NCBI RefSeq assembly: GCF_006345805.1
Contig: NC_043009.1
Coordinates: 48,608,001 to 48,672,000 of the forward strand
DNA: 64,000 bases
Direction of reading: 5' to 3'
Source of the DNA: Octopus sinensis
Taxonomy: Eukaryota
The number at the start of each line of letters is the position of its first letter. Position 1 is the first letter of the stretch. Shown in pieces: positions 29,419 through 35,400 of the stretch. A program made the position numbers.

Positions 29419-32400
29419 TATATATTATATATATATATATCTATATATATAATATATATTATATATAATATGCATATATACGACGGGCTTTTTCAGTTGC
29501 TGTCTACCAAAATCCACTCACAAGGCTTTGGTCGGCCTGAATACATTTGCCCAAGGTGCAATGTAGTGGGACTGAACCAAAGCCATGTGGTTCGTAAGCG
29601 AGCTACTTACAGACCAGCCACTCCTGCGCCTATTAGTATAATGTAGTTATATAGCGTTGGGTTGAAGAGAACTCAGAACATAAAGACAGACGAAATACCT
29701 ATTTCTTTACTACCCACAAGGGGCTAAACACAGAGAAGACAATCAAGGACAGACAAACGGATTAAGTCGATTATATCGACCCCAGTGCGTAACTTTCGAC
29801 CCCGAAAGGATGAAAAGCAAAGTCGACCTCGGCGGAATTTGAACTCAGAACGTAACGGCAGACGAAATACCAATTTCTTTATTGCCCACCGGGGGCCAAA
29901 CATAGATATGGACAGTACAACTGATGGGATCAGTGAATCGATATGATTTTACATAAATGTGACATCAAAAATAAAATACAATACATAAAAATCGAATGGA
30001 ATACACAGTACAAAAACAATACAAATGAAGCGATGATCAAGTTACGCTCCGATCCCACAAGCCCCGATTCTACCGCTGATACCTTTTTATTTTTTTTTTT
30101 TTTTTCCTCATCTATTCACACGGTTCCTTGCACGCACAACACTCGTGCAACATACTTCCATCTCTTTTGGAACGTACACTCTGACAGACACCTCTTCTCC
30201 AGCCACAGTTTCCTTTTCAAATGAAAAGAAAAAAAGGATCGTAAATTGTCACCAGAGATAAAGTTGCCTGTCTTAATTCCTTTTATCCTAGTATTCCATA
30301 CAGCCTCTTTTGCTATTGCTACAACCGTGAGAAAACAATTCTTACCTTCGTTCGTTAGAACTCCCGGTGGTCAATTTTTATAATTGACTCAGTCGACAGC
30401 CGTACTCTTCCTTCGCCGGACAACAGATGTTCAGCATAAGCCCACATTTCAGTTATCTCCGGACACTGAACAATAGCGTGAGGGACGGTTTCCCTGTCCC
30501 CACCGCATCTTGGACAGGTCGGCGACTGACGTTTACCATGTCTTGCGAGCTTATCCCAAACGGGCAAGGCACCTCTGTAGCATTGCCAGGTTAAGGACTT
30601 TTGGAAGTTGTCCAACGTTCTCAACCCGAATGTACGATGAAACAAGCTGTCCAGTTGAATAATCCGAGACCTAGAGTCGACCCCAGGCCATCGTCGCATT
30701 CAGACTCTACCAAACCAACTATATAAAAATCCGTGTGGAACCCCACCGCTGGCGTTGCCCGAGCGCCGGAACAGCAAGAGGGCCTTACGGCACTCTTTAT
30801 GCCACTCACTCGACCTCGGTCTACGAGAACACACCAGGCTTCCTGTTCGCAAAAACTCTTGAACTCAGGGAACATTTGTCTGGCCAGCGGAGACCACACC
30901 CGTTCACTATCCAGGAGAATTCAGAGGTGCCTCAACCTCAACGCATGTCTGCGCATCATTAACCAAGGCATCCCTAAACCTCCATTTAAAGGCTTTTGAC
31001 AGCAGACAGAGCGTTTCACAAGTGGCGACCTGCCCTTCCACAAAAAGCGAAAGAGCTGTCTCTCCAACCTGATCAACCACGAATCCGGACAGGGCACGAC
31101 AGTCAGGCGGTAGGTAATGACCGATGCGATAAACACATCGGCCACTTCCGCCTCCCTTTCAGGGATAGCCACCGCCAAGACCAAGTCTTGACTACTGCAG
31201 CCACCCTGCTCAATACCTCCGTCCAGTTCTTCTCTATCTGGAGGCCTGGTCCAAACCAGACTCCCAGCAACTTAACCGGTCCCTCCGTCCAGCGCCTAAC
31301 AACACTGTCTGAAGGCATCGACTTGCCAACCAGGTGCCGAGCTGCAAGCCGACCGACTTTTCCCGGTTAATCTTTGCTCTGCTACCTCCTCGTAAGCCTC
31401 AATAGTCTTACCTACTTCACGTAGCGTACCACTGTGGTTACACTGAGAGTGATATCATCCGCGAAAGCCGTAACAAACTCCTCTAGTCCTGGTTCTCTCG
31501 GGATGCCACTCAACCTTTGCAGTAATGGCTCGAGAGCCATCACAACAAAAGTGGTGTGAAAGCGGACATCCTTGACGAACCGAGCGTCTGATGCAGAACG
31601 GCTTCGAAAGGAAACCGTTCACCCGAACTATCGAGTCAATGTTGTGGTACAAAGCGATAAATCACCTGAGGAAGCCAAGGCCCAGGCCAAACCGCGCAAG
31701 TACAGTCGCTAGGTATCGATGGTCAACCCTATCAAAAGCTTTAGACTGGTCCAAATGCACCAATGCCCCACCTTTGCCAGATTTATTACCAAACCTCTCT
31801 ATGGTATAGCGAATAAGATGGAGGGTATCCTGAATGGTTCTGCCTGGATGGCACATGTCTGTGCCTCCCCGACTATACCATTCGCGACACGCGCCAACCT
31901 TTTTGCTAGAACCTTGGCCAAAATCTTCACTTCTGCGTTTAACAGAGTGATGGGCCTGAAATTCTCTAGAACGTCCCCTTGCGGGTCCTTTCTGACCAAC
32001 GTCACTACTCCCCGGCGCACAGATCTGGGGATAAACCCATTCTGTTTCCAGTTCGCGTACACGTCAGTCAGTAGTTGCCCGAACAAGTCTGGCATACATT
32101 TATACAGCTCGTACGGAAGACCATCAAGTCCCGGTGACTTACCCGCTTTACAATCGGCCAAAGCCTCCATCACCTCCTCAAGTGTGATTGGCCCTTCGCA
32201 AGACTCCGCATCCGACCCCGAGAGGCACGGCAGCCCAGTAAGAAAGTCCTCGAGGGCTCTCCCACCACCAGGACCGCCGTCACCCCCGAACAGCTGGGCG
32301 AAGTAGTACTCCCGAAAGACCTCACACATTTTCTCGGGTTCGTTTATCAAGACACCATTTTGATTCGTCAAAGACCGAATAGAGGAACTATTCCTTGCCG

Positions 32401-35400
32401 AGCTTCCACCACTCGGGCCCATCCAGCGGCTTTGATTCCTTCACTTCCCATTGCACGTAACTTAGCTCTGGTAATACTTCCCATGTGGTGGGCTTCAAGA
32501 TGATGGTTTAACTCCAGTCTTTTCACCCTCGCTTGGTCTGTATTACCAGTCCTCCAGGGCTTCTTCTAGTTCCTTAACTAGACCATCTCCTATTTTACGT
32601 CCCTTCTTAGCTAAACTTATGCTAAACCTAATAGACTCATATTTGATGGCTCTTTTTAGGGCGTACCACCATTTGTTATTAATGATGGTACCTGTTAATG
32701 CCCTCTGTATTAACATCTTGATCCGCTTTCTGTACTCCTCAATCGCCAAAAGGGACGTATTGAGTTTCCAGTAGCCAGATCCCTGTCTATGCAACTTATC
32801 TACCGTCAGTTTACAGGTAACCATCTTGTGGTCACTGTAGCTGACTAGAAAAAACTGTGGACACTCAACTATGGACTTATCTTTTTCTCTAATTAAAATC
32901 CTATCTAGATATGTTCTGGTAGACCCGTCACTATTTGACCACGTCCACTGTGGAGTGTTCGGGTGCTCCAACCTATATGGATCTGCTAGCTGAAATTGAC
33001 TTAGCAGATCCCGAAAGCCTGTGTGTTACTTTCTGTTCATGTTCGAGTTTGAGCCAACACAATCTGTGTGTGCTGCACATATTGTATAGAGTCTCCTAAC
33101 ACTACTAGTGAATGCGACGTGGCTAGGAACTTTCCTAGGCCACGAAAATATTCAGTTTGCGGGCCAATAATGTTTGGTGCATAAATAGCGACCAGCCTGA
33201 TTGTCTTGCCACAACTGAATGTCAAGTCGAGAACGACCAGCCTGCCTTCTGGGTCAGAAAAAACCAACTTTTTCTCGGCTACCCGGTTTCTTTTTAGTAG
33301 GACCAACACCCCACCCCCACCTCCCGCCGACTCGGAGAAACGTATTTCTCGTAGCCGTTCAGGAGGGGGAGCAGATCTCTTGGCCCCTCACCCGGGTTTC
33401 CGTTGTGCAACAATTACATCCAAATTTCTCGACCTGATGTCATTCAGAAAGCGTCCTTGCTTCCAGCTTGACAACAGGCCATGAACATTTAAACAACCAA
33501 TGTGAATAGCCATCACTTACCTGTTTAATTAGGATTGTCCGGTGGAGGGGGACCCTCCACCTTTTTTTTATCCAGGGTCGGAGGTGGACGGTCTTGGGAA
33601 ATAGATTTGTCAAAATCCCGTCTCACCACCGACACAGAATTATCAGGTGGAGGGGGAATCTCCACCTTTTCCTTTTCTCGCGGGATCGGAGCTGGTAATC
33701 CATGAAATATCGACTTGTTAAAATCTAATCTCAATGAAGATACAGTCTTTCTGTACTTATTTTGTAGAATTCTATAAGTCTTATTTGAGACTTCATATAT
33801 GTCGTAATTGATAAATTCCTCTGAAAGGTTATCAATTTTTTTTACAGTCTTTATGAGTTGAATGTCTCTCATGAGCTCAGTATCTTTAGTGTATACGGCT
33901 ATTATGCCTTTTTCTCTTTTCTCTTCTGGCAGTCTTTTTTGGTCGTTGTTCTGTAGTAGTCGCCGCTCTCGGCTGGGTTGCTGGTTGTATTTTTCTTTTG
34001 TTTGTTGTTTTTTTCTCATCTGTTTCTTCTTATCTTCTTCCTCTTTGTCTTTTTTCTCCTCTTCCTCTCTCTTCTTCATTTTCCTTGCAGTTCCTTCGAA
34101 TGTGGCCTAATTGACCACATAAAAAACATCGAGGTTTTCGGCCCTCAACAAACACCACGAGGTTCTCCTCCCCTACCTCAATTGTCTCAGGAATTGTTGA
34201 ATTATTTTAGGGTCCGCTTGAATGAGAAGATTAATTGTTTTACCATCCCAGCGTGGGTTTTCCGTAGCGGTAGCCTGGAGGAGAGTAATTTTTTCTACCT
34301 CTTTGATTAGGACTGCCGCCAACAACCACATAGGTTCGACCTCTGGCGGGACCCTTGTAATTTTTATTCGCGACGTCCTCATCCCCATATAATAGGGTAT
34401 TAACTCCACGTCGTTCGTTTTCAACGTTTCCACTGAGTTCTTGTGTGCTATTTCTTTATTGGTGAACCTTACTTCCACCGTTCCGAATTTTTTTCCTCTT
34501 CTCAGAAATACTACGTCGCCCAATATTGGCTTTAAGCACTTTTCTATTTTCTCTTCTGACATTCTTTCAATTTTTCTATTTTGTAGACAATATGTTTTGA
34601 AAATTATTGTTTTTTGCTTTTCTTCCTGTAATAACTTTTGCGGAGGTTCAATTTTCACATGTGTCATTTATTTCCATCATTTTGCTGTATTTCATAATTT
34701 CGCTTTTATTCGTCGACAGTATCTGGGTTCCACCCCCAGCAGCCAACGCAAAACTTTTTTTTCCATTTTTTGGTTCTATCTGGATGCTAGGCACATCAAT
34801 TATTCTCTTCGACACAATGCCTTTGTTCTCTGGCAAAGTCGGAAACTCTTCTGGTGAAAGTTCTGACGAGCTCTCAGACACATCTCCAAAAATATCAAAT
34901 ATATTATCCTCTCTGCTATTCCTTCTTGTAGCGGGGGAAACCCCTATTTCCTTGTCTGTAGTTGGCTCCTCGCCGGACATGTATTTCCTCCTCTCAACAA
35001 GAGAGAAGAAACAAGTATTTCTGCTCCAACGGTAGGCTCCATGCTAGACGACATTCTTCCCCCCAAAGGGGGAATGAACAACGCGTGCTACCACAAGCAC
35101 TAAGTGTTTTCAATTGAAAACTCCAACAGTTAAGTATTCAACAGTTTAACAAGAAACAACAGTTGTTAACAATATTAACACCACGAAACAGCAATTCTTA
35201 CTTCACGAACACATGCGCGGCAGACGAAATACGGCTACGAATTTCGCCCGGCGTGCTTAACGTTTCTGCCAGCTCGCCACTTTACATGAATGAATATTGT
35301 TATAGTTATTGTTGTTCGTATTGTTGTTCGTAGGCGCAGGAGTGGCTGTATGGTAAGTAGCTTGCTAACCAACCACATGGTTCCGGGTTCAGTCCCACTT

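What the first reader, a model, noticed from the sequence alone, without database searches (positions are those of the whole stretch)
29669..35278. Tx1 LINE that appears site-specific for a SINE it also mobilises (self-targeting LINE/SINE system)
Seen: a full-length Tx1 splits a family-1 SINE in the same orientation, with a 15-bp TSD (CGGCAGACGAAATAC) lying between the A-box-like TGGCAGAA and B-box-like GAGTTCAAATTCC. The same position is the junction of four SINE-into-SINE insertions in this window (21633/4, 21817/8, 29698/9, 47346/7). Known: Tx1-clade APE endonucleases are often sequence-specific, with targets including U2, tRNA, 5S, microsatellites and the Tx1D transposon. Inferred: this family's target is its own parasite SINE, so SINE amplification multiplies safe landing sites for the LINE. 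I do not know of this loop being described, but I cannot search the literature.
Basis: partly seen in the sequence, partly recalled or inferred. Interest (0 to 1): 0.9.

Follow-up and report, generated by a model that had tools for sequence, protein, structure and literature searches.

The report
LINE and SINE sharing one SINE-internal landing site
A decayed L1/Tx1-type jumping gene and the short parasitic elements that borrow its tail have repeatedly landed at exactly the same nucleotide inside copies of a short repeat family, a new twist on the known habit of such elements to target other repeats.

Summary
A 5,347-bp LINE (29871-35217, minus strand) lies inside a SINE in the same orientation. 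It is flanked by an exact 15-bp duplication, at 29856-29870 and 35218-35232. Four SINE 3' tails abut the same nucleotide of other SINE copies (21633/4, 21817/8, 29698/9, 47346/7).

Five of the 8 "tail-B" 3' ends in the window sit on this site, and 3 sit elsewhere. Chance would give about 6e-19.

The LINE has zf-CCHC in ORF1, and ORF2 maps collinearly on APE+RT+zf-RVT relatives. It is broken by at least 4 frame changes. Its last 34-42 nt resemble the SINE tails.

Units next to the head are young (94-96% alike). Downstream units are older and of other subfamilies. These are therefore independent nested insertions.

Best reading: a site-preferring L1/Tx1-type LINE and its tail-sharing SINE target a conserved SINE-internal sequence.

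Caveats:
- Tx1 clade membership could not be tested.
- There is only one LINE copy.
- The target module is shared by SINEs with three different tails.
- SINE-into-SINE events add no new heads.
- No genome-wide check was possible.

The closest known case is Tx1-Mar/SINEU in crocodilians. This is a new variant of a known kind.

The parts
35233..35280 (-). 5' part (head) of the host SINE, upstream of the insertion. It contains the TGGCAGAA motif at 35264-35271. The 5' boundary is approximate.
   Evidence: aligns with the heads of the other copies (22044, 9030, 57623).
35218..35232 (-). Target-site duplication, copy at the 5' end of the LINE (GTATTTCGTCTGCCG in SINE sense)
   Evidence: identical 15/15 to 29856-29870; the flanking bases differ.
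29871..35217 (-). L1/Tx1-group LINE, 5,347 bp, decayed, with no terminal poly(A)
   Evidence: It is the only copy in the window.
34981..35217 (-). LINE 5' UTR (237 nt), up to the first ATG of the ORF1 remnant
   Evidence: ORF 34648-35043 with an internal M. No other copy in the window.
33528..34980 (-). ORF1 remnants spread over several frames. The CCHC zinc knuckle is at about 34087-34128. The C-terminal part carries a 72%-identical internal direct repeat (33531-33625 / 33636-33733).
   Evidence: Pfam zf-CCHC E=3.6e-6, 27.3 bits against a cut-off of 20.8.
30122..33513 (-). ORF2 remnants, with positions interpolated from the alignment to P0024: APE endonuclease about 32830-33513, RT core about 31340-31990, zf-RVT about 30442-30600. 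There are at least 4 frame changes.
   Evidence: tblastn of relatives P0001, P0024 and P0025 gives five collinear segments in frames 2, 1, 3, 2, 1. Pfam zf-RVT E=3.8e-9 on the window's own ORF, and a weak RVT_1 match. P0024 carries Exo_endo_phos + RVT_1 + zf-RVT.
29871..30118 (-). LINE 3' UTR. An A-rich tract at 30082-30106 starts about 12 nt after the ORF2 stop. The last ~35-40 nt (29871-29910) are shared with tail-B SINEs and include a small GCCC-N5-GGGY hairpin followed by A(A/G)TAAAGAAAT(T/A)G.
   Evidence: 79-82% identity over 34-42 nt to 5 SINE tails (a sixth match: 77% over 30 nt, E=0.25). The hairpin shows no covariation.
29856..29870 (-). Target-site duplication, copy at the 3' end of the LINE. 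It is also the first 15 nt of the host SINE's body unit.
29699..29870 (-). Body and tail-B of the host SINE (a young unit). It contains GAGTTCAAATTCC at 29834-29846 and ends ...GTGGGTAGTAAAGAAATAG.
   Evidence: 94-96% identical to units u22001 and u47536.
29669..29698 (-). 30-nt remnant of an older SINE of another subtype (GTCTGTCTTTATG), into whose site the host SINE unit was inserted (junction 29698/29699)
21509..22044 (-). Array of one head plus three units: u22001 (young, tail B), u21817 (older, tail B), u21633 (oldest, tail A). Junctions at 21817/21818 and 21633/21634.
47206..47543 (-). Array of a 7-nt head remnant plus two units, u47536 (young) and u47346 (older, tail truncated). Junction at 47346/47347. 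The tail shows an AAATAG duplication.

Best explanation
An L1/Tx1-group LINE and the tail-B SINE it mobilises share one strongly preferred insertion site: a conserved sequence inside the head/body module of an abundant SINE superfamily. The LINE has an APE-type endonuclease, RT, a C-terminal zinc-binding domain and an ORF1 with a CCHC knuckle. The host is probably a cephalopod.

Shown: the LINE and four SINE units end at the identical nucleotide, in the target's orientation. The LINE is flanked by a 15-bp duplication. The LINE and SINE 3' termini are alike. The inserted units are young and the targets are older.

Inferred mechanism:
1. The endonuclease nicks the antisense strand of the SINE at 5'-GACGAAATAC|GGCTA-3'.
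2. The freed 3' end primes reverse transcription of an RNA whose 3' tail the RT recognises: a hairpin followed by A(A/G)TAAAGAAAT(T/A)G. Read-through RNA carrying the downstream site may help.
3. The sense strand is nicked 15 nt downstream, which gives the duplication.
4. When the template is a SINE RNA, the cDNA contains the same 15-mer as the target overhang. The 5' junction is then resolved by homology. No second head is added, and the result is an array of one head followed by several units.

New units stack on the head-proximal site, which suggests that recognition needs sequence on both sides of the nick. The preference is not absolute.
For: - The 15/15 duplication flanks the whole 5,347-bp element.
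- Five of 8 tail-B 3' ends abut GTAT(T/A)TCGTC, all co-oriented. P = 6e-19 under uniform placement.
- The LINE's last 34-42 nt are 79-82% identical to 5 SINE tails, each at the exact 3' terminus (alignment).
- ORF2 is collinear with APE+RT+zf-RVT relatives. The window's own ORFs match zf-RVT (E=3.8e-9) and zf-CCHC (E=3.6e-6). Relative P0024's nearest solved structure is LINE-1 ORF2p, E=1e-72.
- The head-proximal units u22001, u29870 and u47536 are 94-96% identical to each other. The downstream units u21817, u21633 and u47346 are 77-89% identical to them and 77-83% to each other. They include a tail-A unit and a different subtype. The events are therefore independent and a dimeric master copy is excluded.
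- None of the 4 SINE-into-SINE events carries a second head.
- Precedent: Tx1 families target other transposons, and their SINE partners share the target and form tandems (Kojima 2015, PMC4494074, passages and sections 14-15).
Against: - There is only one LINE copy, in one 64-kb window. No eukaryotic genome collection was available, so the family's genome-wide flanks are unknown.
- Three of 8 tail-B ends are off-site.
- Tail similarity is short (34-42 nt, E=6.5e-4 to 0.005 per copy under permissive scoring). The tail hairpin has no covariation.
- The A-rich tract right after the ORF2 stop leaves room for a chimeric origin of the last 211 nt.
- The stacking rule rests on only 2 informative events.
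- Endonuclease specificity, read-through priming and homology-based 5' resolution are inferred, not tested. The copy here is non-functional.
- Frame changes could in part be assembly errors.
Confidence: 0.68

Rival explanations
1. Chimeric retrocopy. Target-primed reverse transcription began on a ~211-nt tail-B non-autonomous RNA (29871-30081) at its usual SINE site. The RT then switched template to the poly(A) end of an unrelated L1-like LINE mRNA. On this reading the LINE is a passenger, not the autonomous partner, and has no site specificity of its own.
For: A 22-nt A-rich tract (30082-30106) starts about 12 nt after the ORF2 stop, where a poly(A) tail would sit. ORF2 alignments to relatives end at 30122. 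One duplication flanking the whole insert is also what a template-switch chimera would give.
Against: Apart from its last ~35 nt, the 211-nt piece has no other copy in this SINE-dense window, and it has no similarity to the SINE head. A 3' UTR of ~250 nt ending in the partner SINE's tail is the usual anatomy of LINE/SINE pairs (established knowledge; Kojima 2015 introduction). Full-length 5-kb chimeras are rare (recalled).
Confidence: 0.1
2. Composite SINE family. The tail|site junction arose once in a dimeric or trimeric master copy, and the arrays are copies of that master or local tandem duplications, not repeated targeting. The LINE hit would then be a coincidence.
For: All arrays have one head followed by units, as a multimeric master would.
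Against: Downstream units differ between arrays in subfamily and tail: tail A at 21633, a TCTTTATG subtype at 29698, and 83% identity between u21817 and u47346. The head-proximal units are 94-96% alike. Units within an array differ in age. The LINE carries its own 15-bp duplication at the same nucleotide (8.6e-5 by chance).
Confidence: 0.05
3. RNA-level concatenation. SINE RNAs processed at the site serve as serial templates (RT jumps from the 5' end of one RNA to the 3' end of the next), so an array is made in a single event without any DNA-site specificity.
For: It would give precise tail|site junctions and no internal heads.
Against: Units of one array would then be of one age, but they are not. 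It does not explain a LINE inserted with a duplication of genomic target sequence at the same nucleotide.
Confidence: 0.04
4. A structural or fragile hotspot rather than protein sequence recognition. The site is the 3' arm of an imperfect palindrome and is simply nick-prone, so any retroelement machinery can use it.
For: An 8-12 bp inverted repeat surrounds the nick in the predicted fold. Other rearrangements meet near the site: a head-to-head SINE pair at 47536/47548, a 14-bp deletion at 57586/7, and a copy starting at unit position 16 at 40762.
Against: The fold is not better than shuffles (z = -0.86, 38 of 200 shuffles fold as well). Only tail-B elements are seen at the site; SINEs with tails A and C are not. 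A 15-bp staggered duplication and strict orientation fit endonuclease-driven insertion.
Confidence: 0.08

Closest known systems
Tx1-Mar LINEs with SINEU SINEs targeting the Mariner-N4_AMi DNA transposon in crocodilians (Kojima 2015, PMC4494074; abstract, passages and sections 14-15 read)
   Same: A LINE group and its SINE partners share a preference for one site inside another abundant transposon. [quoted passage not shown] The preference is graded: 90%, 23% and 13% of copies for the three SINEU families.
   Different: There the target is an unrelated DNA transposon. Here it is a SINE module that includes the LINE's own dependent SINE family. As a result the 5' junctions vanish by homology and arrays of one head plus several units arise. 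There the Tx1 clade was shown by an RT phylogeny; here it could not be tested.
Tx1L inserted in Tx1D in Xenopus, and other site-specific Tx1-clade families (Keno/U2, Kibi, Koshi, Mutsu/5S), as cited in PMC4494074 and in the search listing; the original papers were not read
   Same: APE-type LINEs of the L1 group that insert at a defined sequence in a multicopy target. The encoded endonuclease is held to set the target.
   Different: The targets in the passages I read are RNA genes, microsatellites, satellites, DNA transposons and LTR elements. A SINE target was not among them (Fig. 3 itself and the supplements were not visible).
R2/R1 rDNA-specific elements with their non-autonomous derivatives (PMC3414825, seen in a search listing and abstract only), and co-transcription with the target (discussed in PMC4494074)
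   Same: Autonomous and non-autonomous elements share one precise site. Read-through or co-transcribed target RNA can sharpen the 3' junction.
   Different: R2 uses a restriction-like endonuclease and a host gene as target. Nothing here shows co-transcription.
Stringent-type LINE/SINE pairs sharing 3' tails (Kajikawa and Okada 2002, as cited in PMC4494074; PMC4176376 seen in the listing only)
   Same: The SINE 3' end resembles the LINE 3' end. There is a small terminal hairpin and no poly(A).
   Different: Most such pairs insert without sequence specificity. The shared stretch here is short (about 35-40 nt).

Membership tests
Tx1 clade of non-LTR retrotransposons | The RT domain clusters with Tx1 references in a phylogeny (e.g. 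RTclass1 or Repbase) | not testable with these tools
   None of the three protein searches listed a Tx1-named or L1-named reference. The atlas gave only generic RT clusters. No tree was built.
Tx1 clade of non-LTR retrotransposons | ORF2 with an N-terminal APE endonuclease, RT and a C-terminal zinc-binding domain (the L1-group layout) | tested here: met
   Collinear tblastn of P0024 (Exo_endo_phos 6-227, RVT_1 508-724, zf-RVT 969-1020) on 33513-30424. zf-RVT on the window's own ORF. Nearest solved structure to P0024 is LINE-1 ORF2p, E=1e-72. This layout does not separate Tx1 from L1.
Tx1 clade of non-LTR retrotransposons | ORF1 with RRM/zf-CCHC combinations (said to be consistent with Tx1 in PMC5203782, passage read) | tested here: inconclusive
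   zf-CCHC E=3.6e-6 at 34042-34203. No RRM model matched. The feature is not exclusive to Tx1.
Target-specific non-LTR retrotransposon (criterion in PMC4494074: one kind of sequence in more than 20% of flanks) | A large share of independent copies flanked by the same target at the same position | tested here: inconclusive
   LINE: 1 of 1 copy. Tail-B 3' ends: 5 of 8. The share is far above 20%, but n is tiny and comes from one window. The genome-wide count was not possible.
LINE/SINE partner pair | Similar 3'-terminal sequences | tested here: met
   79-82% over 34-42 nt to 5 SINE tails, each ending at the exact terminus (alignment).
LINE/SINE partner pair | The same insertion signature for both | tested here: met
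   Same nucleotide and same orientation for the LINE and 4 SINE units.
tRNA-derived SINE | Head recognisably derived from a tRNA, with A and B boxes | tested here: not met
   ARAGORN found 0 genes. Rfam found no tRNA match at gathering score or at E<=10 on one copy. Only motif-level likeness to the box consensus sequences, which are recalled. A tRNA origin may still be true but too decayed to detect.

The most novel reading that the evidence does not exclude
A closed self-targeting LINE/SINE system. An L1/Tx1-type LINE has evolved endonuclease specificity for a conserved sequence in the very SINE superfamily it mobilises. The hugely expanded cephalopod SINE population would then be its safe harbour. 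Its SINE partner piles up as arrays of one head plus several units by homology-resolved insertion. Off-site SINE insertions seed fresh landing sites. That would be a three-way feedback between a LINE, its parasite and the target supply.
Probability: 0.35. Interest if true: 0.65.

Novelty: new variant of a known kind. Interest (0 to 1): 0.5.

Why it matters
Site-specific LINEs are studied as examples of genome-friendly parasitism and as templates for targeted gene insertion. A LINE whose preferred site lies in its own dependent SINE would add a new kind of target, a retroposon that the LINE itself amplifies. It would also explain tandem SINE arrays in SINE-rich cephalopod genomes. And it would give a natural test of how homology between template and target shapes the 5' junction in target-primed reverse transcription. 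It also bears on repeat annotation: arrays of one head plus several units would be miscounted as separate or truncated SINE copies.

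Tried and rejected
- **Clade assignment by names.** Three homologue searches and one atlas search gave no Tx1- or L1-named reference, so no tree was built.
- **Pfam on single ORF fragments.** This mostly failed because the ORFs are in pieces: only 3 of the 9 fragments gave any match at E<=0.01, namely zf-RVT, a weak RVT_1 and a below-cut-off DUF2087 that I disregard.
- **tRNA origin of the head.** Not detectable.
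- **Tail hairpin.** No covariation.
- **Palindrome at the target.** Not better than shuffles.
- **Other copies in the window.** There is no other copy of the LINE, its UTRs or any RT-like ORF, so the LINE flank statistics have n=1.
- **Dimeric-master and RNA-concatenation models.** Rejected on unit ages and subtypes.
- **The 54-nt, 83% LINE/SINE match.** It includes 18 nt of target site. The tail similarity proper is 34-42 nt.
- **Occupied versus vacant sites.** All 5 occupied sites start GTAT(T/A)TCG. The 3 isolated vacant sites (5203, 9077, 46098) each differ within the first 5 nt. With the 2 perfect vacant sites counted (22001, 47536), this is not significant by my arithmetic (about 0.08).
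- **Literature.** Five searches and passages of seven papers gave no description of a LINE targeting its own SINE. Subscription papers, Repbase Reports and all supplementary files were not seen and may hold one. That includes the supplementary target figures of PMC4494074.
- **Not checked.** Any eukaryotic genome.

Full report
**What is there**

The window has no N and is AT-rich and dense in repeats. Between 29871 and 35217, on the minus strand, lies a 5,347-bp element. It is flanked by two identical copies of CGGCAGACGAAATAC, at 29856-29870 and 35218-35232. The bases outside the two copies differ, so the duplication is exactly 15 bp.

The sequence interrupted is a SINE on the same strand:
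- Its head is at about 35233-35280 and contains TGGCAGAA.
- Its body and tail are at 29699-29870. The body contains GAGTTCAAATTCC, and the tail ends ...GTGGGTAGTAAAGAAATAG.

**The LINE**

On the sense strand I find the following parts.
- A 237-nt leader.
- ORF1 remnants with a CCHC zinc knuckle (Pfam zf-CCHC, E=3.6e-6, above the cut-off).
- ORF2 remnants from 33513 to 30122. These align collinearly with relatives that carry Exo_endo_phos, RVT_1 and zf-RVT (P0024). The alignment falls into five segments in frames 2, 1, 3, 2, 1, so there are at least four frame changes, and the open pieces are at most 213 aa long.
- The window's own C-terminal piece matches zf-RVT (E=3.8e-9).

The nearest solved structure to relative P0024 is LINE-1 ORF2p (E=1e-72 over endonuclease plus RT). 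The closest named proteins are cephalopod: Argonauta hians at 52% and Acanthosepion pharaonis at 46%. The host is therefore probably a cephalopod, which is an inference.

No search returned a Tx1-named reference. 'L1/Tx1 group' is shown; 'Tx1 clade' is not. A passage in PMC5203782 says RRM/zf-CCHC ORF1 variants are consistent with Tx1. PMC13282606 lists 13 recently active L1-Tx1 families in Octopus vulgaris. Both make the label plausible but do not test it.

The element has no terminal poly(A). A 22-nt A-rich tract lies about 12 nt after the ORF2 stop and is followed by 211 nt of 3' UTR.

**The shared tail**

The last 34-42 nt of the LINE are 79-82% identical to the termini of 5 SINE copies (a sixth matches at 77% over 30 nt, E=0.25), each time ending at the very 3' end (alignment). 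The 54-nt, 83% match overstates this, because 18 nt of it are target site.

The shared part holds a small GCCC-N5-GGGY hairpin followed by A(A/G)TAAAGAAAT(T/A)G. The hairpin is conserved but shows no covariation. The rest of the UTRs has no other copy in the window.

**The shared site**

A scan for the tail end and for the site gives 8 tail-B 3' ends: 7 SINE and 1 LINE.
- Five are followed directly by GTAT(T/A)TCGTC: 21633/4, 21817/8, 29698/9, 29870/1 (the LINE) and 47346/7.
- Three are not: 57410 lies in (TA)n, 9258 is followed by TATACGTA, and 47721 on the plus strand is followed by TCAATACC.

There are 13 site-like 12-mers among 128,000 oriented positions. Five or more of 8 ends on such sites has P = 6e-19. 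The LINE end alone has 8.6e-5, and five of five in the target's orientation has 0.03. The coincidence is real.

**Independent events**

An HMM of the unit finds 13 body-bearing copies and two weak ones. Pairwise identities show two groups.
- The head-proximal units u22001, u29870 and u47536 form a young group, 94-96% alike.
- The units downstream of them are older. u21817, u21633 and u47346 are 77-89% identical to the young group and 77-83% to each other.

The downstream units are also of different kinds. u21633 ends in another tail ('A', ...GCCTAGAGTAGAAAGGAATA). The 30-nt remnant at 29669-29698 is of a TCTTTATG subtype, which is also seen at 5203 and 46098.

A dimeric master copy, a local tandem duplication, or one-step RNA concatenation would each give equal-aged or orthologous units. 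None of them fits.

**The 5' junctions**

None of the four SINE-into-SINE events has a second head. Each array is one head followed by two or three units. The LINE, which has no homology to the target at its 5' end, shows a plain 15-bp duplication.

My inference runs as follows. The second nick lies 15 nt downstream on the sense strand. When the template is a SINE RNA, the cDNA contains the same 15-mer as the overhang. Annealing there then completes the insertion without a head.

In both cases where two sites were available (u22001 and the LINE), the head-proximal one was used. That is too few events to prove a rule. It would mean that recognition needs head-side sequence too.

If so, SINE-into-SINE insertion does not raise the number of usable sites. 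Only off-site, full-length insertions do, such as the copies at 9030-9258 and 57410-57623.

**What the target is**

The site-bearing module is shared by SINEs with at least three tails:
- Tail A, seen at 21515 and 40863.
- Tail B.
- Tail C, ...AAATT(A/T)AAAAGAATTA, seen at 45983.

Only tail-B elements are seen inserted at the site. The target is therefore a SINE superfamily module that includes, but is not limited to, the LINE's own SINE.

I could not show a tRNA origin of the head. The A-box and B-box labels rest on recalled consensus sequences.

**Rivals**

The main rival is a template-switch chimera: a 211-nt tail-B RNA copied first, then an unrelated polyadenylated LINE mRNA. The position of the A-rich tract suggests it.
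- Against it, the 211-nt piece has no separate copy in this window.
- A ~250-nt UTR ending in the partner SINE's tail is the normal anatomy of such pairs.
- I give this rival about 0.1.

A structural hotspot is suggested by the imperfect palindrome around the nick and by other rearrangements near it. But the fold is not better than shuffles (z = -0.86), and only tail-B elements use the site.

**Comparison with what is known**

Kojima 2015 (PMC4494074; abstract, passages and sections 14-15 read) describes the following.
- Tx1-Mar LINEs and SINEU SINEs share a preference for one site in the Mariner-N4_AMi DNA transposon.
- Tandem SINEU-3 copies sandwich the duplication.
- The preference is graded: 90%, 23% and 13% of copies.
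- Other Tx1 families target Harbinger transposons, LTR elements, microsatellites and small RNA genes.

The present case works the same way, except that the target is a SINE module that includes the LINE's own dependent SINE. That produces homology-resolved arrays.

In five literature searches and the passages read, I found no description of such a case. Supplements, Repbase Reports and subscription journals were not seen.

**Verdict**

- It is a new variant of a known kind, resting on one LINE copy and four SINE junctions in one window.
- The genome-wide flank table is the decisive step, and it could not be run here.

Noticed in passing
window 29152-29640 (-) and 35331-35759 (+): Two copies of a second, longer SINE-like family (it starts GGCGCAGGAGTGGCTG and has an internal (TA)n/(GT)n stretch) lie in inverted orientation on either side of the LINE-bearing SINE. 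One 178-nt arm pair is 94% complementary. This may be chance in a SINE-dense region, or a larger inverted structure.
   Followed up: partly
window 47520-47560: Two SINE copies meet head to head. The minus-strand array keeps only 7 nt of head before the site. A plus-strand tail-B copy (47548-47721) starts about 2 nt before its own site and lacks 12 nt just after it. Both are broken within about 10 nt of the target nucleotide. This could be twin priming or an aborted event. It remains unexplained.
   Followed up: partly
window 57586/57587: The otherwise full-length tail-B SINE inserted in (TA)n lacks 14 nt (GCTTAGCCGTATTT in other copies). These are exactly the bases that span the nick position, so this copy has lost the landing site.
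   Followed up: no
window 40762-40863 (+) and 36311-36378 (-): Two diverged SINE bodies begin at unit positions 16 and 17, just after the 15-nt interval that is duplicated by the LINE. This is the inferred position of the second-strand nick. The 40762 copy is preceded by the tail of another SINE family.
   Followed up: no
window 5178-5326, 21509-21633, 40762-40905, 45983-46150: SINEs sharing the same head and body module carry at least three unrelated 3' tails (A, B, C). This implies that several LINE partners serve one SINE superfamily.
   Followed up: partly
window junctions 21817/8, 29698/9, 47346/7: The tail end GAAATA and the start of the site TATTTC are reverse complements. Each junction therefore forms a 6+6 palindrome around the two central G's (GAAATAG|GTATTTC). 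The LINE tail (GAAATTG) fits less well. The significance is unknown.
   Followed up: no
window 13635-16383 and 17016-17640: Long degenerate (CCA)n/(ACC)n blocks and (TTC)n arrays account for the strong negative GC skew at 12-18 kb.
   Followed up: yes
window 33531-33625 and 33636-33733: A 72%-identical direct repeat of about 95 nt lies in the proline-rich C-terminal part of the ORF1 remnant, just upstream of the ORF2 start.
   Followed up: no
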